This document shows positions 390-49,975 of a stretch of 64,000 nt of DNA, in pieces. The stretch covers positions 14,226 to 78,225 of the forward strand of contig CALLRP010000006.1 of assembly GCA_938014335.1 (NCBI GenBank). The letters run 5' to 3'. Numbering within the stretch: position 1 is the stretch's first letter; each line of letters opens with the position of its first letter. The notes under the pieces were generated by a model that made no database searches, had not been told where the DNA came from, and saw only the letters and a list, made by a program, of their open reading frames with translations. The position numbers were made by a program, and so were the translations under genes. Origin of the DNA: an uncultured bacterium. Its GTDB lineage: Bacteria > Hydrogenedentota > Hydrogenedentia > Hydrogenedentales > Hydrogenedentaceae.

Positions 390-1619
390 TTATTTGGTTT
401 CAAAAATATTCTGAATCGTTTGCAAATCCACTCCCAATACTTTTTCTGCGAGATAATTTAATTCTTTTTCACTTCCTACAAAGTGGAAAGTCCGATGCGT
501 ATGTTCAACATATTCTCCTTTCTTTAATTCCTCCGCAGGAGAAGAAGTTTCTAATTCATAGAAAGGACCCAGAGGTTTTTTCCCGGGACCTAACGGGCCA
601 TCGTTATAAGAATTAATTACATCACCGCCATACGGGTCTTTTTGCATTTCCCACATCGAATTAACATAGGGTTTAAGCATGGTAGGCTTACTGTATTCCA
701 CAATGGTCAATACTTTATTCTTTGCATCATAGCTTCCACATACAGATAATGCTCGTTTTGGGGAAACTCCTATTTTGCTGCGATATTGCCCATCTCCACG
801 GAAGAATACCGCATTTTCTTTTACAACCAGACGGTCTGGAGGAACCTTGCCGAAATAAGCATCATTTACTTTGGGACCTAAAACCTCTTCCGGACCGGGT
901 AGGAACGGAATGACAATAGTGGTTTCTGAAGAAGGGTTAAACATTCCTAATATCCAGATAGACAATAGCCCTTTTTCTTTACTCCAATCTTCTGCCCCAG
1001 TATTTGTTATTTTATTTTTTGATTCAGCTCCTATGTATTTAATATTGGAAGGAATGGTCACTCCTAAAGCACCTGCTATTTGTTCTTTGGATAAAATGCT
1101 GACCGTTCGTTCTATTAATATTTGGAAATCGGTTCCTGACCAGTTTTTTAATTTTGCCTCCTTTTTGAAAGATACTTGCCTTTCGTTTTGTGAAATAACT
1201 TCATACGGTTCTGTATCTATAACCGCGGGGGTTTGCCAGTGTTCCAAATCGAAAGGAGCATTGATGGGGAAGAAAATACCATACTGTCCCCCTTCAGGAC
1301 CAATCCAGAAACGATCTTCACCTCCGAACACATTAATATGGGGTTCAAATTTTTTTGAGGAAATTAATTCACGATTAATCCATCCAAAACTTAATCCTTC
1401 TGCTCCTTCTGCGGTACTTGTCATGATACGTCCCTGATACTCGGGGACAATTGCAATTTCGCCATCAGATTCTGCATCTTTCAATACAATAACAGTTACA
1501 TACTGTTTTAAAAATTCCACATCATCTTTGAAACGAGAATCTGAGTATGCGGTATTGTAAGAAGAACAGAGGACAAACATTAGTAAAGATAATCCAATAA
1601 TAAACATAACCTTTGTCAT
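390..1619 (-). CDS. Secreted hypothetical protein (family not recognised)
   Basis: 409-aa ORF with a signal-like N-terminus (MFIIGLSLLMFVLCSS). No catalytic motif that I can name. The 188-aa and 63-aa ORFs on the opposite strand look like shadow ORFs. Confidence 0.6.
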   Translation of the reverse strand: MTKVMFIIGLSLLMFVLCSSYNTAYSDSRFKDDVEFLKQYVTVIVLKDAESDGEIAIVPEYQGRIMTSTAEGAEGLSFGWINRELISSKKFEPHINVFGGEDRFWIGPEGGQYGIFFPINAPFDLEHWQTPAVIDTEPYEVISQNERQVSFKKEAKLKNWSGTDFQILIERTVSILSKEQIAGALGVTIPSNIKYIGAESKNKITNTGAEDWSKEKGLLSIWILGMFNPSSETTIVIPFLPGPEEVLGPKVNDAYFGKVPPDRLVVKENAVFFRGDGQYRSKIGVSPKRALSVCGSYDAKNKVLTIVEYSKPTMLKPYVNSMWEMQKDPYGGDVINSYNDGPLGPGKKPLGPFYELETSSPAEELKKGEYVEHTHRTFHFVGSEKELNYLAEKVLGVDLQTIQNIFETK

Positions 1620-1759
1620 ACATTATCTCCTTTTAATTAATTATTTTTAAAGTAAATGTTAACTTATTTTTGTTTCGGAAAGTTAAACCAAAAGTATTAT
1701 AATATAACATCTAATAAGAAACTTATTAATTTTAATATATTTTAGGAAAAATTTTCGCT

Positions 1760-3892
1760 ATGAAGTTGCTTGCTTACAAAAAAACACGTGAGAAAAGAGT
1801 AAAAATCCTTTATATTCTTCCCTCTCATTATGATGATGACGGTTATCCGTATCGTTTCTGGAAAGGATTACTGCCATCAAACACACTCGTGTGTATGAGA
1901 GCATTAACAGAAAAGTTAATTAGAGATAATAAAATAGACCCTGCATTCGAGGTTCGAGTAGAGATAATAGATGAGTTTGTTCATGGAATCAATGTTGAAA
2001 AAATAGTTAAAGAGAGCAGGAAACAAAAAGAAAAATTAATTGTGGGGTTGGTGGGGGTGCAAACGAATATGTTTGCTCGGGCAACTGACATAGCCAGGAT
2101 GTTTCGTAAGCATGATATACCAGTAATGATGGGTGGATTCCATGTGAGTGGTGTTATAAAGTTATTCGGTCCACATACTTCGCACTTAAAATTCCTTATG
2201 GATAATGGTGTGAGTCTGGTTTGTGGAGAGGTGGAGGGGGAGGAAGTACTTGCTCGGATATTAAATGATGCTATTCATAATAATTTACAACCCTGTTACA
2301 TTATTCAAGAATCTCCTAATATTGATGAGGCTCCTATTCCTGAAGCAGATCCTGAATACTTAAAACATTTCATGCAACCCATGTGTACCATAGATACAAG
2401 TCGTGGATGTCCATTTAATTGCTCTTTTTGCACCATAATCAATGTCCAAGGGCGTAAAATAAGATGTCGTTCTGCGGAAAGAATTTTAGAGGTTATCGAG
2501 AGGAACTACGATAATGGGTTTTATAGTTATTTCTTTACTGATGATAATATGTCTCGTTCCCCTATTTGGAAAGAATTATTTACAGGGCTTATTGATTTGA
2601 AGCACCAAGGGAAGAAGATTCGATTCATGATGCAGATTGATACACAAGCATGGAAAATCCCTGATTTTGTTCGGATGGCTTCAGAAGCAGGATGTTATCT
2701 TGTATTTATTGGAATGGAAAGTATCAATCCGCAAAATCTAATTATGATGAAAAAGACACAAAATAAAACTTCTGAGTATGCTGAAATGGTGGAAGCATGG
2801 CATAAAGCGGGGGTTCTTGTTCATGTAGGGTATATTGTGGGGATGCCCTGTGATACCCCCAAAAGTATTATCTATGATGTTAAATTATTAAAAAGTGAAG
2901 TAAAAGTTGATGAGGCTTCCTTTTTTATCATGACCCCACTTCCGGGTTCAAGAGACCATAAAGAGCGTCTTGAAAAAGGAGAAAAAATATCAGAGGATTA
3001 TAATTATTATGATAGTTGCCACGAAACTTTCCTTCATCCTAATTTTAAATCTGGAGAATTAAAGAAATCCTGGCTAAAAGCATGGTCGCTGTTTTATTCT
3101 AAAGACAACATTATTGATATATTACTTCGTTGTCCACCCGAACAATATTGGAATGCTTTCTGGCTAACTTTATGGAACCGATATTCAACTTTATTGAGTA
3201 ATCATCCCATGAGTATGGGATTTTTGAGAAGAAAAAAACGCAAAGAACGTTGTCCAATGATGAGTGTTGAAAGTCGAGGAGAATTCCTAAGGAGAAGAAT
3301 TAAGGATTTTGCCAATCAAATCAGGGTAATTATACAGGTATTTTATGAATATCAAGAAATCTGGTTACTAACACGGAAACAATTAAAAGAAAAGAGAGAA
3401 TCCTTATCTTTTGCTTATTCATATCTTCAAGAAGTTCGTGTTCGATTGATACAAATGGTTCAATCTAACCAATACACTCAGTTTGTTTCCCAGGAGTATG
3501 ATCAACTTCTTCAAAAAGCAAACGAGTTAATCCTTCAACTGTCTCAAACTTCAGGACAGATAAATAAAAAAATCCAAAGGAAATTAGAACAACAATTAAG
3601 TGGATTTCGGGAACAGTTAAACAATTTAATACAAAAATCTTGTGCCCCTAATTTTGATAATTTAATTTGGCTGGATGCACTTGTGAAAAATAGAATCATC
3701 TCCAGCTATGAAGAGATAATGATAAAATCAGTTGCACATCGAAGAAAAATCAATCGCTGGTGGTTAGGAATAAAACATGATTTGTCTCATGGAACATTTC
3801 GACTACGAAACATGTTTTATATACCAGAAGTGTTATTATATGAAATTTCCACTGGATTAAGATTTGCTATTTCAGCAGTTCGGATGAAGTAA
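1760..3892 (+). CDS. Class-B (cobalamin-binding-domain) radical SAM enzyme with long C-terminal helical extension
   Basis: 710 aa. B12-binding-type segment (LIVGLVGVQTNMFARATDIARMFRKHDIPVMMGGFHVSG), then the rSAM cluster motif SRGCPFNCSFC (C217-x3-C221-x2-C224). The last ~230 aa are Q/K/E/L-rich and look helical or coiled-coil. Confidence 0.8.
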   Translation: MKLLAYKKTREKRVKILYILPSHYDDDGYPYRFWKGLLPSNTLVCMRALTEKLIRDNKIDPAFEVRVEIIDEFVHGINVEKIVKESRKQKEKLIVGLVGVQTNMFARATDIARMFRKHDIPVMMGGFHVSGVIKLFGPHTSHLKFLMDNGVSLVCGEVEGEEVLARILNDAIHNNLQPCYIIQESPNIDEAPIPEADPEYLKHFMQPMCTIDTSRGCPFNCSFCTIINVQGRKIRCRSAERILEVIERNYDNGFYSYFFTDDNMSRSPIWKELFTGLIDLKHQGKKIRFMMQIDTQAWKIPDFVRMASEAGCYLVFIGMESINPQNLIMMKKTQNKTSEYAEMVEAWHKAGVLVHVGYIVGMPCDTPKSIIYDVKLLKSEVKVDEASFFIMTPLPGSRDHKERLEKGEKISEDYNYYDSCHETFLHPNFKSGELKKSWLKAWSLFYSKDNIIDILLRCPPEQYWNAFWLTLWNRYSTLLSNHPMSMGFLRRKKRKERCPMMSVESRGEFLRRRIKDFANQIRVIIQVFYEYQEIWLLTRKQLKEKRESLSFAYSYLQEVRVRLIQMVQSNQYTQFVSQEYDQLLQKANELILQLSQTSGQINKKIQRKLEQQLSGFREQLNNLIQKSCAPNFDNLIWLDALVKNRIISSYEEIMIKSVAHRRKINRWWLGIKHDLSHGTFRLRNMFYIPEVLLYEISTGLRFAISAVRMK

Positions 3893-3895
3893 AAA

Positions 3896-4684
3896 ATGCC
3901 AGATATAGACATACAACATCGCAGGGTAGGGGTTATTATGCTTCATGGTTCCTGTTCCATGAGTTGTCTATTTTGTATTACAGAGAATAGCATTACAGAA
4001 ATGTCTCCAGAACAGGTAAAAACCATTTTAAAGCTTATGAAAGAGCAAGAAATGGAAAGTGTTGTTTTTGGAGGAGGCGAGCCACTACAATGGAATCATT
4101 CCTTATCGGATTCCATAAAATTAGCGAAATCTATGAGACTTCACACACAGGTAGGCACAAACGGTGTGGGATTAAATCCAGATGTAATTCAGAATTTAAA
4201 TGCAGACCGATATGTGCTTCCTATGGATTCTATCAATCCGCAAATTCATAATTATCTCAGAGGAGGATTCCGAAAACATTACGATATAATAAAAAAAAGA
4301 TTGAGATATTTAACAGAAATAGGGGTGCCTTTTACTATTTCCACAGTTGTTTGTAGGATTAATTTAGATATGTTAAATGAAATAACAGCTTTTCTATTAC
4401 ATTTGTGGGAAAAAGGAGCTCGAATCCATGCCTGGCATTTATATCGTTTTCTACCCATGGGTAGGGGTGGATTGAAAAACGCCAGCATGCTTCATATTAC
4501 CAAAGATGAATATTTTGAGAAAACGGAAGAGATAAAGCAACGTGGAATGCCTTTCCTCGTGTATCGTCGACCTAATATGCAGTTGTCAAAAGAAGTAGAT
4601 TTTTTTTGGGCGGAAGCAGGAGAAGTCAAAGTCGGCAGTCAGGTATGGGAAAAGAAGAATTCTACTTATTGTCTGTGTGAATAA
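3896..4684 (+). CDS. Small radical SAM enzyme (activase-sized)
   Basis: 262 aa. CX3CX2C sits very near the N-terminus (HGSCSMSCLFC; C20/C24/C27), with a GGGEP SAM-binding motif (VVFGGGEPLQW). Its ATG is 4 nt after the stop of the preceding rSAM gene. Confidence 0.75.
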   Translation: MPDIDIQHRRVGVIMLHGSCSMSCLFCITENSITEMSPEQVKTILKLMKEQEMESVVFGGGEPLQWNHSLSDSIKLAKSMRLHTQVGTNGVGLNPDVIQNLNADRYVLPMDSINPQIHNYLRGGFRKHYDIIKKRLRYLTEIGVPFTISTVVCRINLDMLNEITAFLLHLWEKGARIHAWHLYRFLPMGRGGLKNASMLHITKDEYFEKTEEIKQRGMPFLVYRRPNMQLSKEVDFFWAEAGEVKVGSQVWEKKNSTYCLCE

Positions 4685-22701: not shown

Positions 22702-23007
22702 CTAATGTCTACTTCGTCGTTGACGCCTACGAATTTGCTGTTGTTTATTTTGATTTTGTCCTTTGTTTTCTTCTCCATCTCCTATCTTTTGATAAAATAA
22801 GGCTTCTTTATCGGAAAGTTTTTTGTTTTGTATCATGTTTTTAATCTTTTCAATGTCAGTTACTGTTCCCGTCGTTTTTATGTCTGTAGAAACTGAAGAT
22901 ATTTCTGTTTCTGGTTTTCCCGGTAAAGTCTGATAAATGAAAATAGCCACAAATATAATAGTGTAAAGTATTGAGACTGTTAAGAATATAGCATCATTTT
23001 TTTTCAT
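22702..23007 (-). CDS. Small single-pass membrane protein, last gene of the AmmeMemoRadiSam-linked operon
   Basis: 101 aa. N-terminal TM (IFLTVSILYTIIFVAIFIY) and a basic Q/R-rich tail. The start overlaps the stop of the upstream 1187-aa gene by 14 nt (ATGaaaaaaaaTGA). No clear SD. Confidence 0.5.
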   Translation of the reverse strand: MKKNDAIFLTVSILYTIIFVAIFIYQTLPGKPETEISSVSTDIKTTGTVTDIEKIKNMIQNKKLSDKEALFYQKIGDGEENKGQNQNKQQQIRRRQRRSRH

Positions 23008-26000
23008 GTTTATAGCACCGATTACATTGAATACAATCTATTTCTTCTATTTTTGAAATTCCGAGGTCACAGTGGTTTGGAAAAGTTCTCTGCCAGAAGA
23101 AAGAAAATATTCGTAGTGATTGAATTAAACTTAAAAATGCCCCTGTGGGACACAGCACCCGGCACCAGAAGCGGTTATATAAAAGGCTTCCGAACAAAAC
23201 AAAAATTCCAAAAATAGTTACGGTATTCGACATATCCAGCGTGAAAAAAGTAAGTAGTGGGTCAATACTTGCCATATTTGTCTCACGCAAAAAGAAATAA
23301 ACTAAAAAGAAAATAAATGCAAATATATACTTAAACTGCCTTGTCGTGTACCACATCTGCTTCGAAGGGGTAATTTTATTATTTATCCAGTTAAACTTAC
23401 TCATTAATTCTGACATGGCACCAAAGGGGCATAAATAACCGCAATATATATTCCCATTTATAAGAACCAGCAGAGGAATCCCTATGGTAAGTATGCAAGA
23501 AATAGATAAAGTAAACCGGAATTTATCAATAGATATTAGTTGAATAATGGAATAAATCCCGTATTGGATATTTAACCAAAAACCCAATACCAACATAACA
23601 GCAATTAACCAGATGATTCGAAGTACATCGTTGTGAAAGAAACGAAACACAATAGATAGGAGAATAAATATGATGAAGATGTAAACAGAATAAGTGGTTT
23701 GTGTGTGGTTTGCATGTGCAAGTTGTTGTATCTCAGAATAGCCCGTGCTTTTATCTTGAATTAATTTAGCAAACTCTTTCCCAGCAAATTGCACAGCCCT
23801 TTTTACTGCATCCGCTGTTGTTGTGGCACCGCTAACGGTATCTATTTCTGCAATCGTTTCGGGTTGAAATATATTTTTCCCTTTATAAAGAAAAAAATAG
23901 TCTTCTACCCGTGACAAATAGTCGGGTGTTTCATTAGATTGAATAACCCTGATATTTTCTATTCTACCTTCTTTGGAAACTTTAACGGCTATATCTATTT
24001 CACCACCGTATCCGATAACCTTAAATAACGAGGCAGTGGAAAAAATATAAAAAGTGTTCTCATTTTGATTTTCATCTTTTTTTGTAAACGAATAAAATCG
24101 TATTTTACGATTATCGGGAAGAGTCAATATCTCAGGTTTAATTTCCTCCCTTTCTGCGAGTTGTTGAGCAATTTGTGTGAAAACATCTTCGGGGAGAGGT
24201 ATTGTAGAACGATAATATATTTCTGTAGAGATAAAGGTTAGTATAAGAATAGGAACCAATGTATATCCAAGTGTTCTACCCCAAAGTGATGAAACACAAA
24301 ACAAAGTTTTTTGGAGTAATGGAATAAATAAAAGGACAAGAATTAGATAGAAAAAAACAATTCCTGCTGAATATTGAAGTCCCCACAGAGGGAGCAATAA
24401 CAATGGAAATACAAAGGCACCTATACCGGCTCCCAAATGATCGCATCCCTCTAAATATACTGCTAAACGAGAGGTGGTTAATTCTTTATCAGAGATTTCG
24501 AGGAATACAGAAAGCAAGAAACCTAACACAAAACCCCATAGAAAGAAAATAGCAAGATATGTGTAAAAATGAATAGATGGTATTTGAAATATGATGATTG
24601 TAAAAAATGCACATGTACAAGACAGGCAAAAGGCAATGAAAAAAGGCAATCGGCTTTTTTTGTTTACATAAAAAAGATTAAAAAAAATGGGACTTATTGA
24701 AAGTCCCAGCATAAAAAGTGAGGATAAAAGCCCCAAATAAGTGGATAATGAGCCATAAGTATATTGAAATTGAATAAAGAGCAGAAGAGAAACTCCCATG
24801 CCCACAAGTCCAATGATAAAAATGGCAAAGCAAGTTTCAGCAATCGAATAAGTGTATTTTTGTATTCTTTTTCGGAGCGACCTCTTTTTATATATCCATC
24901 GAAATAGGATAAAACTCAATGGGAAGCATATAAAAAGAAAAAGAATTATTCTTTTAATGATTATAATTTTTTCTAATAATCCTGAATACCCATGTTTCCA
25001 GAGATAAAAGAGATTACTGTATAAAAATCCAAGATATTTATTTTCAGAATTGATGAGGTAATTGCTGTCGGTAACTTTTTTAATTTCTTCATACCGATTT
25101 TTTTGAAAAATGATTCTATCCGGTGGATACAAGTCTCTCACAAGATTGGGTCTAATTTCGGGCAATTGTTGTGCAATCGTAGTTAGTCGCTGTTCCAGAG
25201 TGGGGACATGCTCACTCAAAGGATGTGTTAAAGAACCCAATAACCATGTTTCCTCCCCGGGTTTCAGCACAGTAACTTTAAATACTTGATGAAAAGTGAA
25301 AAATATAGAGGCTCCAAGGGTTGCAATTTCCCCCCCTAAAAAATTTTCACCTCCTGACATACGAATACCCACTATTCCTCTATCCGCGAGGCAATTCTTC
25401 AACAAGTTAAAAAAACTATCGGTGAGATATTGATTTGAATTTATCGTTTGAGGGTCACCTGTATACACCAAAATAATATCGAATTTTTCATTTGTAGTTG
25501 TTAAAAATAATCGAGGTTCCGTTTGTGGAAATATCAATTTGTTTGAAGTATTTAAAGATTTTTCTTGTAGTAGCGGGATAATTTTTTGGGATAATTCAAA
25601 ATCAAAAGGTATCCACAAAATTTTCTCTATTTCCTTAATTTTTATGAGGTAGGGTAATATATAAATAAAAGGTTCACCAATTAATAGAAAATTTTTTGCA
25701 TCATTTTTTTGAGCAAGGAAGGTGGACAAGAAACGCAAACCATATTCCTGATTTGGGAAATTTAAGGCAGGTTTAAGATTTCTCAACAAAATAAACTGGG
25801 TATTATCAAATCCATATAAATATTCCCCCTTCTGGGTGATAATTTTACCACCTAAATTTTCACTTTTAGTAAGATTTTCCCAGTGTGTTTTATTTTCCCA
25901 TGATTCTAATGTAAATGCTAAAAACAGAAACAATGGCAAAAGAAAAACAACAATAACTTTTTTAAATAAAACATAGTGAGATAGGGAAAAAGAGGAAGTA

Positions 26001-26557
26001 ATTAAAAAAAAGGAAACGAGACAGAAAGGAATCCAGTGAGAAAGACCGAAATATATGCACAATGAGGTAATAAGTCCACCTAACACAGCCCCGAAAGCCT
26101 CATAAGCGTATATAGAGCGAACAATTGTAGAAGGGGTAGGAATATTTTGTGAGTTCGATGTTAAATTTTGCTCCCACCAAAGTGTGCAGTGGGTAAATAA
26201 GAAACCTGTAAGAAAACTTAATCCTGCAGTTGTCAAAGAAGAATACAATACGAGGGTAGGAATATCAAATATTTCATAAGAAGGAATACCAGAAATATAT
26301 CGAGCACTGCGGATAAAAAAATGTGCACATAACCAGGCAGGAATATAAATAAGAGATGTTATTGTTAAGTATTTAAACTGTTTATAAAAAAGACGCCCTA
26401 CAAGGGTTCCGGGGATAATCCAGATAAACCAGAAAAAATAAAGAATACCCAGGGCAAATTCATTTTCTTCAATACAATGAAGGAAATCACGCACAAGGAG
26501 GGCTTGTGCGGTAATCGAAAACGCTCCTAATGCAATGGGTAATAGAAACTTTTTCAC
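22994..26557 (-). CDS. 1187-aa polytopic chimera: spermidine-synthase-like module + FMN-binding domain + NapH/NosR-like CX3CP iron-sulfur membrane module
   Basis: The GTG start shares GTGA with the upstream stop.
- Residues 1-215: TM bundle.
- About 285-445: SpeE-like fold (FDIILVYTGDPQTINSNQYLTDSFFNLLKNCLADRGIV) with a degenerate Gly motif (LLIGEPFIY).
- About 530-780: second TM bundle.
- About 830-925: FMN_bind domain with the flavinylation-type motif DTVSGAT (nt 23822-23842).
- About 955-1150: TM helices carrying CGYLCP (nt 23426-23443) and CRVLCP.
- C-terminus: C-x11-CIQCNRC. Confidence 0.8.
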   Translation of the reverse strand: MKKFLLPIALGAFSITAQALLVRDFLHCIEENEFALGILYFFWFIWIIPGTLVGRLFYKQFKYLTITSLIYIPAWLCAHFFIRSARYISGIPSYEIFDIPTLVLYSSLTTAGLSFLTGFLFTHCTLWWEQNLTSNSQNIPTPSTIVRSIYAYEAFGAVLGGLITSLCIYFGLSHWIPFCLVSFFLITSSFSLSHYVLFKKVIVVFLLPLFLFLAFTLESWENKTHWENLTKSENLGGKIITQKGEYLYGFDNTQFILLRNLKPALNFPNQEYGLRFLSTFLAQKNDAKNFLLIGEPFIYILPYLIKIKEIEKILWIPFDFELSQKIIPLLQEKSLNTSNKLIFPQTEPRLFLTTTNEKFDIILVYTGDPQTINSNQYLTDSFFNLLKNCLADRGIVGIRMSGGENFLGGEIATLGASIFFTFHQVFKVTVLKPGEETWLLGSLTHPLSEHVPTLEQRLTTIAQQLPEIRPNLVRDLYPPDRIIFQKNRYEEIKKVTDSNYLINSENKYLGFLYSNLFYLWKHGYSGLLEKIIIIKRIILFLFICFPLSFILFRWIYKKRSLRKRIQKYTYSIAETCFAIFIIGLVGMGVSLLLFIQFQYTYGSLSTYLGLLSSLFMLGLSISPIFFNLFYVNKKSRLPFFIAFCLSCTCAFFTIIIFQIPSIHFYTYLAIFFLWGFVLGFLLSVFLEISDKELTTSRLAVYLEGCDHLGAGIGAFVFPLLLLPLWGLQYSAGIVFFYLILVLLFIPLLQKTLFCVSSLWGRTLGYTLVPILILTFISTEIYYRSTIPLPEDVFTQIAQQLAEREEIKPEILTLPDNRKIRFYSFTKKDENQNENTFYIFSTASLFKVIGYGGEIDIAVKVSKEGRIENIRVIQSNETPDYLSRVEDYFFLYKGKNIFQPETIAEIDTVSGATTTADAVKRAVQFAGKEFAKLIQDKSTGYSEIQQLAHANHTQTTYSVYIFIIFILLSIVFRFFHNDVLRIIWLIAVMLVLGFWLNIQYGIYSIIQLISIDKFRFTLSISCILTIGIPLLVLINGNIYCGYLCPFGAMSELMSKFNWINNKITPSKQMWYTTRQFKYIFAFIFFLVYFFLRETNMASIDPLLTFFTLDMSNTVTIFGIFVLFGSLLYNRFWCRVLCPTGAFLSLIQSLRIFSFFWQRTFPNHCDLGISKIEEIDCIQCNRCYKHEKK

Positions 26558-28119
26558 AATTGCTCTTCGTGGAACACTTCTGCTTCAAAAACTTCAAATT
26601 CTGCACCTTCTTTATAGCCATCCGGAGATAATCCTGCTTTCATTGAAAGGTGTTCTAATGTCTGTTGTAAATTCCAATTTTGTTCTGGGGCTACCTGTGG
26701 TAAAAACAAAGCTTGATAATATCCTTTTTTCATAATTATCCCGTGTTTACCCAATTCAATTTCATTATAATGGTTTATCTTTCGTGGATGTGTAAGGAGG
26801 GATATGTCAATCTTAATCTTAGGCAACTCATCTTTTGTGATAGGGTAGAATCGTGGGTCCTTAAATCCAGCATTATACGCATTTTGTAAAACGGATTTAT
26901 ACATTGGCTTTGTTGCGAAAATTTCACCAATACATCCCCGCAAATCGTCATTTATTTTTAAGGTAACAAATGCGGCGCGAGGTGTTTTCATCGTCTCTGT
27001 TATTGTAATAGGTATTTCATTATCCAAAGGTAATTTGTTATGTTCCAGCACATATTCAAGTGTCCATCGTGCTAATTTTAATAAATCCTTTTTCTCTTCA
27101 GGTGTTAATGTCGTTGAAATATTCATAGATTTCTTTTCTCCTTTCTGCCATATTCCCGTAAAGGCAATACTAAAATAACTTACCGAATTCCGATAATCAT
27201 TTACAATCTCGCCGGATTGTTTATATTCAATAAGTTTGGTTTGTGTATTTTCGGGTAATAAATACATTAAAACTCCAATACCATAAGGACCACAAATAGT
27301 AATCCCTGTTTTTTCAATATAATCATAAAATCCCTTTACATCTCGTTTTTCAATATATTGATAAGCGACCATATCCAATTTTTTAAGATTTTCGGGTATA
27401 TTTTCATTAAAAGGTGTGTAATTGTAATTCGGTCCATAATGAGTAAAATCACTACTGGCAATTACCAATGTCTTCTCATCAATGTAGTTTTTTAATATTC
27501 GAGCTACCCTTTCTGTGGTTTCGATATCCAATCTGCCACAAATTAGAGGAATTAATTTAAATTCTCCTTTAAAATATTGTAACAGTGGTAATTCTATTTC
27601 AACGCTATGTTCTCCTTGTTGTGCTAAAGGAACTTCCTTGAAATATGGATATTTTTTTAATTCTTGTATTGTTTCTGTATCAAGAGGTATCTCGCCCATA
27701 GGTGTTTCATAACAATCAACGGAAGGGAGACTTATGAGATTTTCCAAAGATGCTCTATGGCTTGTCCCTAAAATGATTATCCGAGAATATGTCCCTTTCT
27801 CTGTTGTTTTAATTCCTCTGCATGCAGTTAAACCTGAATACATATAACCCGCATGAGGTAAAATAAGTCCGATTACATGTTCAATAAGCTCCCCATCTGC
27901 TTTATTAAACATTTCTGAGATTTGTTGTTTTAATTTTTCTGGATTTGCATCATACCATTGACCTGCAATTAAAGATTGATAAACTTTTTTAGACTCCCTA
28001 TGATTTTCTTGACTTAAAGATAAATTATCCCCACATGCAAATGGAAGAGTGACGATAAACAATAGAAAAAGAGTAATATTTGAATAATTTCTCATCCAAT
28101 AACCCCTTCTTTTTTTCAT
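26554..28119 (-). CDS. Fused AmmeMemoRadiSam system protein B (Memo) :: protein A (AMMECR1) with N-terminal signal/anchor-like segment
   Basis: 521 aa.
- Memo part, about 48-322: AGQWYDANPEKL, LPHAGYMYSG, SSDFTHYGPNY.
- AMMECR1 part, about 338-521: DLRGCIGE.
- N-terminus: MKKRRGYWMRNYSNITLFLLFIVTLPFAC(29)G, i.e. basic, then hydrophobic, then Cys.
- An alternative start at M9 is preceded by GAAGGGG. Confidence 0.88.
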   Translation of the reverse strand: MKKRRGYWMRNYSNITLFLLFIVTLPFACGDNLSLSQENHRESKKVYQSLIAGQWYDANPEKLKQQISEMFNKADGELIEHVIGLILPHAGYMYSGLTACRGIKTTEKGTYSRIIILGTSHRASLENLISLPSVDCYETPMGEIPLDTETIQELKKYPYFKEVPLAQQGEHSVEIELPLLQYFKGEFKLIPLICGRLDIETTERVARILKNYIDEKTLVIASSDFTHYGPNYNYTPFNENIPENLKKLDMVAYQYIEKRDVKGFYDYIEKTGITICGPYGIGVLMYLLPENTQTKLIEYKQSGEIVNDYRNSVSYFSIAFTGIWQKGEKKSMNISTTLTPEEKKDLLKLARWTLEYVLEHNKLPLDNEIPITITETMKTPRAAFVTLKINDDLRGCIGEIFATKPMYKSVLQNAYNAGFKDPRFYPITKDELPKIKIDISLLTHPRKINHYNEIELGKHGIIMKKGYYQALFLPQVAPEQNWNLQQTLEHLSMKAGLSPDGYKEGAEFEVFEAEVFHEEQL

Positions 28120-28314
28120 AACATCATTATATTAAATTTTAACCTGCCCATGGAGAGGATTTCGTTTGAGAAAGGCCGAAATTGTTTTTGTTTTTTGGCA
28201 ATTTTTTTTTGTGTAATAACGGTATTGCATAAGTCTGCCGAACCAAGGATGGTTTTTTTATGCCATATTTGGCAACTACCACGGCCAGAATAGATGATAA
28301 AAATTTTCTCCGAT

Positions 28315-29292
28315 TTATTGCCATATCCCGTATATCTCCTTGTTACATTTGGGACATTTTCCATTTGAAATATTGTTTTGGAGAATGTTATATCCATATC
28401 TTTCAATCAATAAAATTTTACAGAATGGACAGTAAGTATTTGAACTTTCACGGTGTATAATATTGCCAATATATACGAATTGCAATCCCTCATTTTGTGC
28501 AATTTGGCGAGCTTTCAGAAGCGTCTCTAAAGGAGTAGGGAAGAGGTGGGTCATTTTATAACGGGGATAAAACTGGGAAAAATGGAGTGGAGTATCCTTC
28601 CCCAAATTTTTCGCTATCCATGCAGATAATTGTTGTAAGTCTTCATCTTTATCATTCAAGGTGGGAATGACTAAATTCGTGACTTCAAGTTCAACGCCTG
28701 CATTTTTAGTCAGTTCTAAAGTTTTTAAAACAGGTTTTAACGAGCCATCACATACGGTTCTGTAAAATTCCTCTGAAAAACCTTTTAGGTCTATATTAGC
28801 GGAGTGAACAAAAGGTAGCAACCTTTTGTAGGGTTCTTCATTAATATATCCTGCGGTAACAAGAACATTTTTTAGTCCTTTTCCCGCGGATATTTTACAA
28901 CACTCATAAGTATACTCATAATAAGCCAATGGTTCGGTGTAGGTATAAGCGATAGAATGGCTCTTGTACTGAATTGCTAATGCTGTAATCTTTTCAGGGG
29001 CTATAAATTCAGTTTCATATTGATAAGGCTCCGCCTGTGATATTTCCCAATTCTGGCAATTTTTGCAGTGGAGATTACAGCCCACAGTAGCGAGGGATAA
29101 AATAGGTGTTCCAGGCAAAAAATGATAAAGCGGTTTTTTTTCAACGGGGTCAATATGAATAGAACAAGGATAACCATAAGTTACTGCATATAATTTTCCA
29201 TCTATATTAACCCGAATACGACACTCCCCTTTTTGTCCGTTCTCCAGCACACAATAACGGGGACAAAGTTCACATTTGACTAATGTAGTCAT
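28315..29292 (-). CDS. AmmeMemoRadiSam system radical SAM enzyme (PflA-like activase family)
   Basis: 325 aa. N-terminal Cys knuckle (CELCPRYC), rSAM motif GCNLHCKNCQNWEIS and a C-terminal zinc-knuckle (CPFC...CPKC). It lies adjacent to Memo::AMMECR1 on the same strand. Confidence 0.9.
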   Translation of the reverse strand: MTTLVKCELCPRYCVLENGQKGECRIRVNIDGKLYAVTYGYPCSIHIDPVEKKPLYHFLPGTPILSLATVGCNLHCKNCQNWEISQAEPYQYETEFIAPEKITALAIQYKSHSIAYTYTEPLAYYEYTYECCKISAGKGLKNVLVTAGYINEEPYKRLLPFVHSANIDLKGFSEEFYRTVCDGSLKPVLKTLELTKNAGVELEVTNLVIPTLNDKDEDLQQLSAWIAKNLGKDTPLHFSQFYPRYKMTHLFPTPLETLLKARQIAQNEGLQFVYIGNIIHRESSNTYCPFCKILLIERYGYNILQNNISNGKCPKCNKEIYGIWQ

Positions 29293-46141: not shown

Positions 46142-49100
46142 GTGGGTTGCGCACTCTTTTTAGATTATTCATCATTTCTCCATAAAATACATAAGGAAAA
46201 ATGTGTGAAGGGAAGACAAGTTAGGTGTGCTTTATTCTTTATTCTTCTCATTGCTATTATTTTAAGAGTATGGTATCTTTATGAAGTATATAAATATGCC
46301 CCTGATTATTCAGCACTCCAGCAGGACCCGGAAGTTCAAGATTATTTTGCTCGTGCCATTGTAACAGGTGATTGGAGTGTCCCTGAAGGGGTTACCGACC
46401 CCGAGATGCGAACAACCCCTTTTTTCCGTCCACCAGGGCATGGTTATTTTTTAAGTTTTCTGTATCGATTCATTTCGGACAGTTATCTAACACCACGAAT
46501 TGTTAATTCTATCGCTGGCATTTTAACCGTTCTATTAGCATTTTATCTGGGTCGGGCGATTTTCAATGAATATGTGGGATTAATATTCAGTTTTTTAGTG
46601 GCTACCTACAGTGTATTTATATATTGGGAGGGGGAAGTAAATGATCCATCTCTATTTGTCTTTTTTGTTGTTCTCATGTTTTATATTTTGTATCGTTGGA
46701 GTATATACAAAAAATGGTATGAGTGTATTCTTTTGGGCTTGGTAATAGGTGCTTATGCAACTATGAGACCAAACATACTTTCATTTGGTCCTTTTATAGC
46801 CTTATGGATGGCATGGATTGTATTTAAAGAAAAGAAATATTTTGCGTTTATTCCTTCCTGGATTGTTCTCCTTGTTTTTACCTTTGTTCCCATTATACCA
46901 ATCACAGTGAGAAATTATATTGCTTCAGGGGAATGGGTATTCATCTCGACTTATTTTGGTGAAAATTTATTTATAGGGAACAATCCGGAAGCCGATGGAA
47001 CAACCCCATGGAACCAATACTTACAGAAATTAGAAGGAACAGGCAACTGGACTGCTCGCGATTATGTGAATGTGGTAAAAGGGTTGGGTAAAGAATTAGG
47101 AATAAAAGACCTGAAACATGCAGATGCATCAAAAATATTTGCAGAAAAAGCACTGGAATATATCAAAACACATCCTAAAGAAACACTTATACAAGTTTTG
47201 AAAAAAGCAGTTCTTCTTTGGTGTCCTATTGAAATTACATGCAACAAAGTGGTGTATTATGAATTAAAACATTACTCTCCGTTAAAATATCTTCCTACTT
47301 TTCCATGGGCGGGTGGCCTTTTCATTACAGGGACAATTTTGCTTGTTTCTAATATAAAATCTATCTGGAAAAAGAAAAAAATTGTTCCGTTTCTTTTCTC
47401 CTCAAATGGGACATATTCTACAGAGTTATTATTATTAATATACTTGTTTATTGCTACCTATTTAGGTAGTTTTCTCATTTTCTTTGTGAATGGAAGGGCA
47501 CGAGTCCCTGTTATTCCTTTATTTTTTTTAATAGGAGCCAATTTCCTTTATTTTTTGTGGCTATGTATTAAAAACAAAAATCATGTATCTTTAGTAAACT
47601 GGTTATCAGTTCTTTTTATTAGTTTTATTGTAATATCTGTGAAATGGATTCCTTTTGAGCCTGATTTAGCTCGATGGCATTATCAACGAGCAGATTCTTA
47701 TTTAAGAAGAGGAGAAATCCAAAAGGCATTAGAAGAAGCACAAACATTGGTTTATATGCCACAAAGTTTACCTTATATGCATCATCGTTTGGGAAAAGAC
47801 CTATTTAAAGCAGGTTACTTTGTAGAAGCTAAAGAGCAGTTTGAAAAAGGTATTCGATTAGACCCTACTTATCAAGATATGTTTTATTATCTCGGTAAAA
47901 CCTATCTTGTAATGAAAGATGAGACAAAGGCAGAAGAATATTTTAGAAAAGCACTTGAATTAAATCCAAATGATGCCCGTTCTCACAATGAAATTGGGGA
48001 AATTCTTGAGCATCAGGGAAATTGGAAAGAGGCTCTTACTCATTACGAAAAAGCTTTACAAATAGTCCCAGATTTTACTTATGTTTTAGATAAATACGGT
48101 AGAATATTATCTTCACAAGGACGCTCTGAAGATGCGTTGGCTTTTTATAGAAAGGCTTTAGAGACAGACCCTTCCTATCAGGATGTATATTACCTTATTG
48201 GAAGAGAGTTAAGAAGTTTAGGGCGAATTGAAGAGGCGCAAGATACACTCCAAAAAGCGGTAGAATTAAATCCAAAGGATGCAAGGGCACTGTGTGAATT
48301 AGGAAATATTTGTGCAGATGAGGGGGATTGGGATAGTGCAGAGGCGTATTATCGCAAAGCTGTCTCTGCGGTACCTGATTTTGCTTATGCTTATGAACGA
48401 TTAGGAAGAATCTTATTTGCAAAAGATAATTTGAAAGAATCTGAAAAGAATTTAAAAAAAGCGATTGAGTTGAATCCTGAATATCAGGATGGTATTTATC
48501 TTTTAGGTTGTGTTCTGAAAAAGGAAGGACGATTGGAAGAGGCAGAAACATATTTTCGGAGGGCATTAGAATTAAATGTTCGCGATGCACGAGCTTGGAA
48601 TGAATTAGGCGAGATTATGGAAACGAAAAAAGATTATGAGCAAGCACTTAACTGTTATGAAAAAGCATTGGAGGCATATCCTCAATTTGCTTATGTTATT
48701 GCAAAAATGGGTGCAATTTATGCTAACAGGGGAGAATATGAAAAATCGTTGGAAAAACTCAAATTAGCTTTGAACATTGACCCCAATTTCCAGAATGTCT
48801 GTTATATGACAGGGCAGGTACTATCCCGAATGGGACAAAAAGAGGAAGCGAAAGTATACTTTAATAAAGCCATAGAGATGAACCCCGAAGATGCAAGAGC
48901 TCATAGGGAATTAGCCTTGTTAATACAAGAAGATAATCCTGAAAAGGCAATAGAGCATTTCAAAAAGGCATTGGAAATCGTGCCCGATTTCACATTGATA
49001 TTGAATAATTGGGGTAGTCTTCTGGTTAAACAAAATCGTTGGGATGAAGCAGAAAATAAATTTTATGAGGCGTTGAAAATAAGACCCCATGATGAATTAG

Positions 49101-49975
49101 CGTACTACAATCTGGCACAGTTAGCAGAGAAAAAAGGGAATACAGAACAGGCGATTGAACTGTATAAAAAGGCAATGGTGAACAGTCCTGATAATTCGTA
49201 TATTCCGTATGATTTAGGTGTTTTATACGACCGTATGGGTAAAACACAAGAAGCAGAAGCAATGTATTACAAAGCACTAGAAGTAGATGATAAAAATCCA
49301 TTGGCATATAACAATTTAGGTTATCATGCCTTTCTATCAGGAGAAATAGATAAAGCGATAGAACTCTACCAAAAATCCTTATCTATCAAACCTGATTTAA
49401 TAAATGCTCTTTACAATCTTGCAGATGCATTTTTTTCAAAAGAGGAGTTAGAAAAAGTTATTCCTTATTTTGAGAAAGCATTAGAGATTCAACCTAAAGA
49501 CCATAATCTCCATAACGCCTTAGGTTTTTATGCCCTTCAAGTAGGCAAATTCGATTTAGCAGAGAAACACTTAAAGGAAGCAGTAAATTTACAACATGAA
49601 TTCCCACTTGCATGGAAAAATTTAGGGGATTTATATAAAGTTCAAAAAAGATATAGTGAAGCAGAACAAGCGTACAAAAAGGCAATAGAAATTTATCCCA
49701 GTGACGGAGAAGGTTGGGCAAGATATGCTATATTAAAGAAGGAAAAGGGTGATTATCAGGAATCTTTAGAATTATTTCAAGAAGCTTTAAAAAGATTGAA
49801 AGAAAGAGAAAGTCCACCAGAGCTAATTACAGAAGTTTTATTTGAAATAGGAGAAATATACCTTAAATGGGGTGATCAGGAAAATGTGAAGAAAATAATT
49901 ACAGAAATTACAAGATTGAACCCTGAAAATGATGAGATAAAACAAAGAATGAAACAAAAGGGATTCCCTGAATAA
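46142..49975 (+). CDS. GT-C glycosyltransferase (family 39 / ArnT / PMT_2-like membrane domain) fused to a long TPR array
   Basis: 1277 aa. The N-terminal ~500 aa are polytopic (FFRPPGHGYFLSFLYRF..., AGILTVLLAFYLGRAIF). From about residue 520 there are more than 20 tandem 34-aa TPR units (A..Y..AL.L.P....A...LG). The start is uncertain (GTG 46142 or GTG 46204). Confidence 0.85.
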   Translation: MGCALFLDYSSFLHKIHKEKCVKGRQVRCALFFILLIAIILRVWYLYEVYKYAPDYSALQQDPEVQDYFARAIVTGDWSVPEGVTDPEMRTTPFFRPPGHGYFLSFLYRFISDSYLTPRIVNSIAGILTVLLAFYLGRAIFNEYVGLIFSFLVATYSVFIYWEGEVNDPSLFVFFVVLMFYILYRWSIYKKWYECILLGLVIGAYATMRPNILSFGPFIALWMAWIVFKEKKYFAFIPSWIVLLVFTFVPIIPITVRNYIASGEWVFISTYFGENLFIGNNPEADGTTPWNQYLQKLEGTGNWTARDYVNVVKGLGKELGIKDLKHADASKIFAEKALEYIKTHPKETLIQVLKKAVLLWCPIEITCNKVVYYELKHYSPLKYLPTFPWAGGLFITGTILLVSNIKSIWKKKKIVPFLFSSNGTYSTELLLLIYLFIATYLGSFLIFFVNGRARVPVIPLFFLIGANFLYFLWLCIKNKNHVSLVNWLSVLFISFIVISVKWIPFEPDLARWHYQRADSYLRRGEIQKALEEAQTLVYMPQSLPYMHHRLGKDLFKAGYFVEAKEQFEKGIRLDPTYQDMFYYLGKTYLVMKDETKAEEYFRKALELNPNDARSHNEIGEILEHQGNWKEALTHYEKALQIVPDFTYVLDKYGRILSSQGRSEDALAFYRKALETDPSYQDVYYLIGRELRSLGRIEEAQDTLQKAVELNPKDARALCELGNICADEGDWDSAEAYYRKAVSAVPDFAYAYERLGRILFAKDNLKESEKNLKKAIELNPEYQDGIYLLGCVLKKEGRLEEAETYFRRALELNVRDARAWNELGEIMETKKDYEQALNCYEKALEAYPQFAYVIAKMGAIYANRGEYEKSLEKLKLALNIDPNFQNVCYMTGQVLSRMGQKEEAKVYFNKAIEMNPEDARAHRELALLIQEDNPEKAIEHFKKALEIVPDFTLILNNWGSLLVKQNRWDEAENKFYEALKIRPHDELAYYNLAQLAEKKGNTEQAIELYKKAMVNSPDNSYIPYDLGVLYDRMGKTQEAEAMYYKALEVDDKNPLAYNNLGYHAFLSGEIDKAIELYQKSLSIKPDLINALYNLADAFFSKEELEKVIPYFEKALEIQPKDHNLHNALGFYALQVGKFDLAEKHLKEAVNLQHEFPLAWKNLGDLYKVQKRYSEAEQAYKKAIEIYPSDGEGWARYAILKKEKGDYQESLELFQEALKRLKERESPPELITEVLFEIGEIYLKWGDQENVKKIITEITRLNPENDEIKQRMKQKGFPE

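What the first reader, a model, noticed from the sequence alone, without database searches (positions are those of the whole stretch)
1760..4684. Orphan pair of radical SAM enzymes: 710-aa cobalamin-type enzyme with coiled-coil tail plus activase-sized partner
Seen: two rSAM genes lie 4 nt apart. The first has a B12-binding-type domain, the CPFNCSFC cluster motif and an atypical ~230-aa Q/K/E/L-rich helical C-terminus (residues about 480-710). The second is 262 aa with its cluster motif at residues 20-27, as in activases and QueE-like enzymes. I see no precursor-peptide ORF, transporter, protease or sugar/lipid gene beside them. The flanks are an unrelated secreted protein and aspS.

Inference: the substrate is not deducible from context. 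The coiled-coil tail could mediate oligomerisation or docking to a macromolecular substrate. Such a substrate could be a lipid, RNA or protein rather than a RiPP.
Basis: partly seen in the sequence, partly recalled or inferred. Interest (0 to 1): 0.5.

Follow-up and report, generated by a model that had tools for sequence, protein, structure and literature searches.

The report
Lineage-specific pair of uncharacterised radical SAM enzymes
Two adjacent radical-SAM enzyme genes are real and co-transcribed in one bacterial lineage (Hydrogenedens), but each belongs to its own uncharacterised family that usually occurs without the other, so this is a modestly interesting pair of unknown function rather than a new system.

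Summary
ORF A (1760-3892, 710 aa) and ORF B (3896-4684, 262 aa) are radical SAM (rSAM) genes 3 nt apart, flanked by a DUF6786 gene and aspS.

A has the architecture of cobalamin-type (class B) rSAMs. It has a Rossmann domain with invariant GG/GE cobalamin motifs and a CX3CX2C core. Its closest folds are AprD4, CysS, TsrM and MgmA. The 230-aa C-terminal tail is not a low-complexity coiled coil. It is a conserved seven-helix bundle specific to this family and strongly basic in every member (pI 9.9-11.5).

The A-then-B arrangement is kept in about 12 distinct loci, namely the Hydrogenedens clade plus one divergent lineage in a different neighbourhood. It is absent from about 73 of 80 other B loci and 76 of 80 other A loci. 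Elsewhere A pairs with archease-RtcB (11 of 65 loci) or is fused to a fatty-acid desaturase (one lineage). B usually faces a class-I methyltransferase (29 loci). No precursor peptide ORF is conserved.

Best guess, at low confidence: A is a cobalamin-type rSAM docking on a polyanionic macromolecule, RNA being favoured over membrane lipid. B carries out a separate radical step in the same pathway in this lineage.

The parts
1620..1759 (+). AT-rich divergent intergenic spacer between the DUF6786 gene and gene A. It is the presumed promoter region of the A-B operon.
   Evidence: Sequence read. No Rfam family or riboswitch matched. Promoter-like hits are at chance level. No small ORF is conserved across orthologous loci.
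1760..3892 (+). Gene A: a 710-aa radical SAM enzyme with class-B (cobalamin-type) architecture, from an uncharacterised family.
1793..2302 (+). N-terminal Rossmann-type (cobalamin-binding-like) domain of A, residues about 12-181. It includes invariant G125-G126 (nt 2132-2137) and G156-E157 (nt 2225-2230).
   Evidence: Alternating beta/alpha secondary structure in the model. Invariant columns in a 34-sequence alignment. Translation reads GGFHVSG...VCGEV. GG and GE are the Cbl-contacting motifs of OxsB, TsrM and TokK (PMC9204698). Pfam PF02310 was not detected.
2408..2431 (+). Radical SAM [4Fe-4S] cluster motif C217-x3-C221-x2-C224 (CPFNCSFC) of A.
   Evidence: Translation. C217, C221 and C224 are invariant. 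The only other invariant Cys is C312, so there is no auxiliary N-terminal cluster.
3200..3889 (+). C-terminal tail of A, residues 481-710. It has a conserved HPMxxG plus basic RxKxRxxRR segment, followed by a seven-helix bundle. It is strongly basic and specific to this family.
3896..4684 (+). Gene B: a 262-aa radical SAM enzyme with a viperin-like fold, from a compact uncharacterised family of about 120 clusters.
3953..3976 (+). Radical SAM cluster motif C20-x3-C24-x2-C27 (CSMSCLFC) of B.
   Evidence: Translation. These are the only invariant cysteines in the B family, so there is no SPASM or twitch auxiliary cluster.

Best explanation
The locus is a two-gene operon, A then B with a 3-nt spacer. 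It is fixed in the Hydrogenedens lineage of the phylum Hydrogenedentota and joins two otherwise independent, uncharacterised radical SAM (rSAM) families.

Shown:
- A is built like cobalamin-dependent (class B) rSAM enzymes. It has a Rossmann domain carrying the GG and GE cobalamin-contact motifs, a canonical CX3CX2C barrel, and a C-terminal helical cap.
- The cap is a 230-residue, strongly basic seven-helix bundle unique to this family.
- B is a single-cluster rSAM with a viperin-like fold.
- Neither protein is an ortholog of a characterised enzyme.

Inferred:
- In class B enzymes the C-terminal helical domain binds substrate. I therefore propose that A's basic cap docks the enzyme on a polyanionic macromolecule.
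- The most likely target is RNA (tRNA, rRNA or an RNA-repair substrate). There A would carry out a radical, probably cobalamin-mediated C-methylation or related alkylation.
- B would carry out a separate 5'-deoxyadenosyl-radical step on a nucleotide-like moiety of the same target or pathway in this lineage.

The link between the two genes is real but lineage-specific. It is not an obligate two-component system.
For: Operon:
- The spacer is 3 nt in the window and 3-45 nt in orthologous loci.
- The A-then-B order is kept in about 12 distinct loci with A identity down to 48%.
- It is kept in two different neighbourhoods. One is DUF6786/aspS/argCJB. The other, L006, has kdsA, lpxC-fabZ, lpxD, skp and bamA.
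- It occurs in two separated branches of the B tree.

A architecture:
- Invariant GG (125-126) and GE (156-157), and a long His-less beta1-alpha1 loop. These match the motif set described for OxsB, TsrM and TokK (PMC9204698).
- That review also shows the C-terminal helical domains are substrate-binding caps.

Basic cap:
- pI 9.9-11.5 in 34 of 34 members, while the N-terminal domain is acidic, and there is no transmembrane segment.
- A conserved basic cluster at K492, R494, R497, R498, R512 and R513.

RNA hint:
- Archease (PF01951, 5.6e-26) lies directly downstream on the same strand in 11 of 65 non-syntenic A loci with room. RtcB (PF01139, 8e-176) follows in 7.
- The A proteins in those loci are only 50-67% identical to one another, so this is not one narrow lineage.

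B:
- Viperin is the best fold match.
- Many invariant basic residues (R105, H118, R122, H128, H178, H181, R190, R225) suggest a phosphorylated or nucleotide-like substrate.
Against: - Pairing is not general. About 73 of 80 B loci lack A within 10 kb, and 76 of 80 A loci lack B. B occurs in Planctomycetota, Holophagaceae and Deltaproteobacteria, where its usual neighbour is a class-I methyltransferase.
- No archease or RtcB is present in the 64-kb window.
- The only domain fusion in the A family is to a membrane fatty-acid desaturase. This points to lipid rather than RNA.
- A's best sequence and fold relative, AprD4, does not bind cobalamin (PMC12931638). The Rossmann domain has no Pfam B12-binding hit.
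- No structure coordinates were available, so I could not check whether the basic surface faces the active site.
- No experiment exists for either family.
Confidence: 0.33

Rival explanations
1. A is a peripheral-membrane lipid-modifying rSAM, for example a methylase or cross-linker of acyl chains or lipid A. The basic helical tail binds the anionic membrane surface. B is an accessory step in envelope-lipid modification.
For: - One lineage encodes a fusion of a canonical three-His-box fatty-acid desaturase (PF00487, 117 bits) to a full-length A including the tail. It was seen on 5 contigs from several samples.
- In L006 the A-B pair sits among kdsA, kpsF, CMP-Kdo-type, lpxC-fabZ, lpxD, skp and bamA genes.
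- kdsA recurs near A in L127 and L128.
- Weak NCBIfam similarity to HpnJ, HpnR and ladderane-lipid B12-rSAMs.
Against: - The fusion is a single lineage and still keeps the tail, although the desaturase already provides a membrane anchor.
- No lipid genes flank the pair in the window.
- There is no hydrophobic segment (maximum KD19 of 1.16).
- Scores to lipid rSAM families are 45-64 bits against cutoffs of 360-650.
- The archease-RtcB association is more frequent.
Confidence: 0.22
2. The adjacency has no functional meaning. A and B are independent enzymes with unrelated substrates that share a transcript in this lineage by genomic accident.
For: - Each family mostly occurs alone or with other partners.
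- B is found in phyla where the A family was not seen.
- There is no fusion of A with B among about 240 listed homologs.
Against: - Tight spacing and gene order are retained over A divergence to 48% and B divergence to 40%, after complete turnover of the surrounding genes (L006 against the window clade).
- In the NJ tree, L006's B is not sister to the window clade's B. This suggests retention under selection or independent juxtaposition.
Confidence: 0.2
3. A cobalamin-independent sugar or nucleotide-sugar deoxygenation pair. A would be an AprD4-like diol dehydratase and B a viperin-like dehydratase. Together they would make a deoxy or didehydro sugar for an envelope glycan.
For: - L006 has UDP-glucose dehydrogenase immediately upstream on the same strand, plus NeuB, KdsA and glycosyltransferase genes.
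Against: - The NCBIfam AprD4 model scores 41 bits against a cutoff of 500.
- Invariant GG/GE motifs argue for a cofactor-binding Rossmann domain.
- A 230-aa polybasic cap is unexpected for a small-molecule enzyme.
- There are no sugar genes around the pair in the window.
Confidence: 0.1
4. B is a prokaryotic viperin (pVip) making chain-terminating ddh-nucleotides, and the pair is an antiviral defence module.
For: - The PADLOC pVip profile PDLC02904 scores 73 bits at 4.8e-21.
Against: - The curated NCBIfam viperin model NF038283 scores 51 bits against a cutoff of 180.
- The viperin 'RWK' strand aligns to 'AWH' in B. From memory, that Lys contacts the triphosphate.
- There is no kinase neighbour.
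- The locus is a syntenic housekeeping region (aspS, argCJB, exbBD), not a defence island.
- Comparable scores to NirJ2 (64 bits) show the hit is largely the generic rSAM core.
Confidence: 0.05
5. The pair is a RiPP maturase pair, or B is a glycyl-radical-enzyme activase or a QueE.
For:
- Weak NCBIfam similarity to PFL-AE and NrdG.
Against: - No precursor ORF is conserved in the window or in 10 orthologous loci.
- Neither protein has SPASM or twitch cysteines.
- PFL-AE scores 36.6 bits against a cutoff of 231.75, and NrdG2 scores 41 against 131.
- No glycyl radical enzyme or queCDF genes lie nearby.
Confidence: 0.03

Closest known systems
Class B (cobalamin-dependent) radical SAM enzymes: TsrM, CysS, TokK, MgmA/QCMT, OxsB
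   Same: - The three-module layout is the same: N-terminal Rossmann domain, CX3CX2C (beta/alpha)6 core, and C-terminal helical cap.
- The GG and GE motifs are invariant.
   Different: - There is no Pfam B12-binding hit, and no sequence similarity outside the rSAM core.
- The cap is about 230 aa, polybasic, and matches no known cap.
- All curated family scores are at most 73 bits against cutoffs of 250-775.
AprD4 (radical SAM 1,2-diol dehydratase, apramycin pathway)
   Different: - AprD4 is 457 aa with no long tail.
- It does not bind cobalamin (PMC12931638).
- The NCBIfam AprD4 model scores 41 bits against a cutoff of 500.
- It sits in an aminoglycoside cluster, which is absent here.
Viperin / prokaryotic viperins (pVips)
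   Different: - Identity is 20%.
- The curated viperin model is not met (51 bits against 180).
- The RWK strand is AWH in B.
- The C-terminal extension is shorter.
- The genomic context is housekeeping or methyltransferase-linked, not kinase or defence.
Methylthiotransferases MiaB/RimO
   Different: A has no N-terminal cysteine triad for an auxiliary cluster and no TRAM domain. TIGR00089 scores 31 bits against a cutoff of 251.
Pnkp-Hen1 type RNA repair-and-modify operons (analogy from my own knowledge, not tested here)
   Same: An RNA ligase system (archease-RtcB) is co-encoded with a putative methylating enzyme in 7-11 loci of the A family.
   Different: Hen1 is a class-I 2'-O-methyltransferase, not an rSAM. 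No RtcB or archease is present at the window locus. No biochemical link has been shown.

Membership tests
Radical SAM superfamily (PF04055) | CX3CX2C cluster motif, and a Pfam score above the gathering threshold. | tested here: met
   A scores 57 bits and B scores 59.8 bits against a cutoff of 29.5. The motifs were verified by translation.
Class B cobalamin-dependent rSAM | N-terminal Rossmann-type cobalamin-binding domain preceding the rSAM core. | tested here: inconclusive
Class B cobalamin-dependent rSAM | Gly-Gly motif, Gly-Glu motif on alpha5, and a long His-less 'His loop' (PMC9204698). | tested here: met
   G125-G126 and G156-E157 are invariant in 34 sequences and sit after beta4 and beta5 of the model. 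The beta1-alpha1 loop is about 20 residues with no conserved His.
Class B cobalamin-dependent rSAM | Actual cobalamin binding and dependence. | not testable with these tools
   This needs purified protein. The caveat is that the nearest relative, AprD4, lacks cobalamin.
AprD4 family diol dehydratase (NF033070) | Curated NCBIfam equivalog score. | tested here: not met
   41 bits against a cutoff of 500.
Lipid B12-rSAMs (HpnJ TIGR03471, HpnR TIGR04367, ladderane TIGR04072) | Curated NCBIfam score. | tested here: not met
   64.2 against 577.6, 44.6 against 650, and 56.1 against 360.
MiaB/RimO methylthiotransferases | N-terminal three-Cys auxiliary cluster, plus the TIGR00089 score. | tested here: not met
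   The only invariant cysteines are C217, C221, C224 and C312. The score is 31 bits against a cutoff of 251.
Viperin / pVip (NF038283) | Curated NCBIfam score. | tested here: not met
   B scores 51.3 bits against a cutoff of 180. The PADLOC pVip profile gives 73 bits but has no curated threshold.
Viperin / pVip | Viperin fold (partial barrel plus C-terminal extension). | tested here: met
Viperin / pVip | Conserved nucleotide-triphosphate-binding Lys in the RWK strand (residue role recalled from memory). | tested here: not met
   The HMM alignment places B's A179-W180-H181 opposite viperin's R-W-K.
Glycyl-radical-enzyme activases (PFL-AE TIGR02493, NrdG TIGR02495) | Curated score, and a cognate glycyl radical enzyme nearby. 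| tested here: not met
QueE (7-carboxy-7-deazaguanine synthase) | Family-level similarity and queC/queD context. | tested here: not met
RiPP rSAM maturase systems | Adjacent precursor peptide gene, and SPASM/twitch auxiliary-cluster cysteines. | tested here: not met
   No small ORF is conserved in 11 loci. There are no extra invariant cysteines in A or B.

The most novel reading that the evidence does not exclude
The A family would be the first cobalamin-type radical SAM enzyme family that acts on RNA. Its polybasic helical cap would dock on tRNA or rRNA. In many Hydrogenedentota it would work in an operon with archease and RtcB as a 'repair-and-mark' system, in which a radical C-methylation protects or marks religated RNA, as Hen1 does in Pnkp-Hen1 systems. 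In the Hydrogenedens lineage the viperin-fold enzyme B would add a second radical modification to the same nucleotide.
Probability: 0.1. Interest if true: 0.75.

Novelty: new variant of a known kind. Interest (0 to 1): 0.38.

Why it matters
Class B radical SAM enzymes are a large and mostly uncharacterised group. In the enzymes studied so far, the C-terminal cap domain helps bind the substrate.

A phylum-wide family with a conserved 230-residue polybasic helical cap would extend the known substrate range of this scaffold if its target is RNA or a membrane lipid. The family has two independent context clues: archease-RtcB operons and a desaturase fusion. That gives experimenters concrete hypotheses to test with RNA nucleoside analysis and lipidomics.

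B defines a small, sharply bounded viperin-fold family outside the antiviral viperins. This is useful for mapping how the viperin scaffold diversified.

For genome annotation, the practical lesson is that the two genes should not be annotated as a cognate enzyme/activase pair or as a RiPP system.

Tried and rejected
- **Curated libraries.** I scanned A and B against Pfam, NCBIfam and PADLOC. Nothing reached a family cutoff.
- **PDB sequence searches.** Single-sequence and profile searches found similarity only in the rSAM core.
- **Tail-only search.** An exhaustive search of 1.8 billion representatives with the tail found no independent domain family.
- **Neighbour clustering around 80 B loci and 80 A loci.** Apart from archease/RtcB, B, and the class-I methyltransferase, the neighbours are heterogeneous. 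By my own reading of the sequences they include GroEL-, flotillin-, TPR-glycosyltransferase-, acyl-CoA-dehydrogenase-, RidA- and epimerase-like proteins. A ThiH/HydG-like rSAM with a BATS domain was confirmed by Pfam. I rejected all of these as partners.
- **Apparent long N-terminal extensions of A homologs.** These are ORF over-calls in high-GC contigs, not extra domains.
- **Regulatory signals.** The riboswitch, promoter and terminator scans gave nothing above chance.
- **Small-ORF or precursor search.** Negative.
- **Literature.** Searches on Hydrogenedentes rSAMs, membrane-spanning lipid synthases, archease/RtcB plus rSAM, B12-rSAM lipid methylases, B12-rSAMs on tRNA, and desaturase fusions found no paper on either family.
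- **AFDB50 fold search.** The library was unavailable.
- **Defence-system reading.** I rejected it on the curated threshold and the genomic context.
Full report
**1. What is in the sequence**

The window carries two same-strand ORFs. A runs 1760..3892 (710 aa) and B runs 3896..4684 (262 aa). They are separated by TAA-AAA-ATG, a 3-nt spacer.

Upstream and divergent lies a DUF6786 protein (PF20583, 549 bits) with a signal-peptide-like N-terminus. Downstream and convergent, 8 nt away, lies aspS.

Both proteins pass Pfam Radical_SAM.

GC content of the pair is like its surroundings. Homologs name the organism as Candidatus Hydrogenedens, phylum Hydrogenedentota.

**2. Protein A**

No curated NCBIfam model comes near its cutoff. 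The best is the PhpK family at 73 bits against 600. HpnJ scores 64 against 578, BchE 56 against 481, and AprD4 41 against 500.

A has very many full-length relatives of about 700 aa at 41-87% identity, mostly from Hydrogenedentota metagenome-assembled genomes. A 34-sequence alignment has 60% mean column identity.

The AlphaFold2 model is confident, with pLDDT 85 and pTM 0.86. It shows three parts:
- an alternating beta/alpha Rossmann domain (about residues 12-181);
- the rSAM barrel (about residues 205-430);
- a long all-helical C-terminus.

At sequence level only the core, positions about 196-430, aligns to these structures. Pfam's B12-binding model is not hit.

Against the motif set defined from the OxsB, TsrM and TokK structures (PMC9204698), A has:
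- a long beta1-alpha1 loop without a conserved His;
- an alternating G99-x-Q101-x-N103-x-F105 pattern on the beta3-alpha3 loop;
- invariant G125-G126 after beta4;
- invariant G156-E157 ahead of alpha5.

This supports cobalamin binding at motif level. However, AprD4 is the closest relative and does not bind cobalamin (PMC12931638). Cofactor use therefore stays open.

The only invariant cysteines are the cluster triad plus C312. A is therefore not a methylthiotransferase.

**3. The tail**

The tail is not a low-complexity coiled coil.
- It carries invariant residues H482, P483, M484, G487, R497, E530, E533, W535, Y650 and R701.
- It is modelled as seven helices of 21-33 residues between positions 506 and 708.
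- It has no transmembrane segment.
- It is strongly basic in all 34 aligned members, with pI 9.9-11.5 and net charge +11 to +24. The N-terminal domain is acidic in most members.

In class B enzymes the C-terminal helical domain is the substrate-binding cap. A conserved polybasic cap therefore most simply implies a polyanionic substrate or docking surface.

**4. Protein B**

B's family is compact. About 120 clusters score at least 234 bits, followed by a sharp drop. All are 230-290 aa, with no fusions and only generic names.

Its signature motifs are GGGEP, QVGTNG and HAWHLYRFxPxGRGG. The cluster triad supplies the only invariant cysteines.

B fails the curated viperin model, scoring 51 bits against 180. 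It also replaces viperin's RWK strand with AWH. The 73-bit PADLOC pVip hit is comparable to its 64-bit NirJ2 hit, so it largely reflects the generic rSAM core.

B is therefore a viperin-fold enzyme of unknown substrate. It is not an activase, not QueE, and not a bona fide viperin.

**5. Is the pair conserved?**

*Among 80 genome loci with B homologs:*
- A lies immediately upstream only in the seven Hydrogenedens-like loci L007-L013.
- The remaining 73 loci show no A within 10 kb. They include other Hydrogenedentota, Planctomycetota, Holophagaceae and other Acidobacteriota, Deltaproteobacteria, Schekmanbacteria and Omnitrophica.

*Among 80 metagenome loci with A homologs:*
- Only four carry B, and all four are close Hydrogenedens relatives.

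*Two more paired loci came from direct look-ups:*
- L005 has A at 60% identity and the same synteny as the window.
- L006 has A at 48% and B at 40% identity, in a completely different neighbourhood. That neighbourhood holds UDP-glucose dehydrogenase, kdsA, kpsF, neuB, lpxC-fabZ, lpxD, skp and bamA.

Across about 12 distinct paired loci, the gene order is always A then B, with 3-45 nt between them.

In a neighbour-joining tree, L006's B groups with unpaired Hydrogenedentota B's rather than with the window clade.

The conclusion is that these are two independent families whose adjacency is lineage-specific. The adjacency has still persisted, or arisen twice, under conditions that suggest co-expression is selected.

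**6. What each family sits next to elsewhere**

*B:* the commonest neighbour is a convergent class-I SAM methyltransferase (PF08241). It starts within -7 to +125 nt of B's end in 29 of about 67 loci outside the A-B clade, across at least four phyla.

*A:* most loci show no recurrent neighbour. There are two exceptions.
- In 11 of 65 loci with room, an archease gene (PF01951) follows directly on the same strand. RtcB (PF01139) follows that in seven. The A proteins in these loci are only 50-67% identical to one another, so this is not one narrow lineage.
- One lineage encodes a fusion of a canonical three-His-box membrane fatty-acid desaturase to a full-length A, tail included.

Neither archease/RtcB nor the methyltransferase occurs in the 64-kb window.

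**7. Negative checks**

- No small ORF is conserved upstream of A in the window or in ten orthologous loci.
- No Rfam family, including cobalamin or SAM riboswitches, matches anywhere in the window.
- Promoter and terminator matches are at chance level.
- Nine literature searches found no paper on either family.

**8. Interpretation**

*Shown:*
- a two-gene operon of two uncharacterised rSAM families;
- A with class-B architecture, cobalamin-type motifs and a unique polybasic helical cap;
- B with a viperin fold;
- lineage-restricted pairing;
- no RiPP, activase, QueE or defence-island features.

*Inferred:* A docks on a polyanionic macromolecule. I favour RNA, because the archease-RtcB association is the most frequent and phylogenetically broadest context signal. 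The same scaffold with a C-terminal docking domain also serves RNA or ribosome modification in MiaB and RimO.

The desaturase fusion is a serious counter-indication. It points to membrane lipid, and I rank that reading second. A third reading takes the nearest structural analogues literally. AprD4 and viperin both perform radical dehydration on sugars or nucleotides without cobalamin, so this reading proposes nucleotide-sugar chemistry.

The data cannot exclude that the adjacency has no functional meaning.

**9. Verdict**

The finding is real and correctly described at sequence level. Its interpretation is partly right. The pair is not a new kind of system. It is a lineage-specific coupling of two uncharacterised variants of known enzyme classes. 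The polybasic cap of A and the archease-RtcB link are the most interesting leads. Interest is moderate (0.38), and novelty is 'new variant of a known kind'.

Noticed in passing
window 26554-29292 (-): A complete AmmeMemoRadiSam system. It consists of a Memo-AMMECR1 fusion protein (26554-28119; TIGR04336 at 229 bits and TIGR04335 at 166 bits) and its radical SAM partner (28315-29292; TIGR04337 at 378 bits against a cutoff of 220). This is the third rSAM gene in the window.
   Followed up: partly
window 22994-26557 (-): An 1187-aa protein with an FMN_bind domain and a Fer4_5 domain near its C-terminus. It lies immediately downstream of the AmmeMemoRadiSam genes, with overlapping stop and start. 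Most of its length has no Pfam match.
   Followed up: no
L093, L094, L095, L096, L103, L105, L109, L112, L114, L122, L136 (e.g. L109 2558-6609): Homologs of A are followed on the same strand by archease (PF01951), and in seven loci by RtcB RNA ligase (PF01139). I found no published association of an rSAM with archease-RtcB.
   Followed up: partly
L001 8001-11132 (protein P0080; also L002, L003): A 1043-aa natural fusion of a membrane fatty-acid desaturase (His boxes HDCGH, HALHH, HHIHH) to a full-length A-type rSAM including the basic tail. It was seen on 5 contigs from several samples.
   Followed up: partly
29 B-family loci, e.g. L029 3713-4423, L059 10707-11600, L014 1909-2712: A class-I SAM methyltransferase (PF08241) lies tail-to-tail immediately downstream of B homologs in Holophagaceae, Planctomycetota, Deltaproteobacteria, other Acidobacteriota and some Hydrogenedentota. 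The Hydrogenedentota version is only weakly similar to the others.
   Followed up: partly
L139, L140, L144, L145, L151-L153, L163-L165: A subgroup of A homologs aligns to the window protein only as far as residues about 600-645, and these proteins are 750-790 aa long. They therefore carry a different or longer C-terminal tail.
   Followed up: no
window 390-1619 (-) and syntenic loci L005, L007-L013, L087-L090: The DUF6786 gene with a signal-peptide-like N-terminus is divergently transcribed from A in every locus of the syntenic clade, but it is absent from L006. Its function is unknown, and a shared divergent promoter region is possible.
   Followed up: no
L014, L015, L023, L027, L045 (e.g. 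L027 10904-12298): In five loci, at least four of them labelled Hydrogenedentota, a ThiH/HydG-like rSAM (BATS domain, C-terminal CxxC) lies one or two genes downstream of B on the same strand. I did not establish whether it belongs to a hydrogenase-maturation set.
   Followed up: no
L001 2261-3829 (-): A second, different B12-type rSAM (PF02310 weak, PF04055, DUF4070; 522 aa) lies about 4 kb from the desaturase-A fusion gene.
   Followed up: no
window 46142-49975 (+): A 1277-aa protein made almost entirely of TPR repeats.
   Followed up: no
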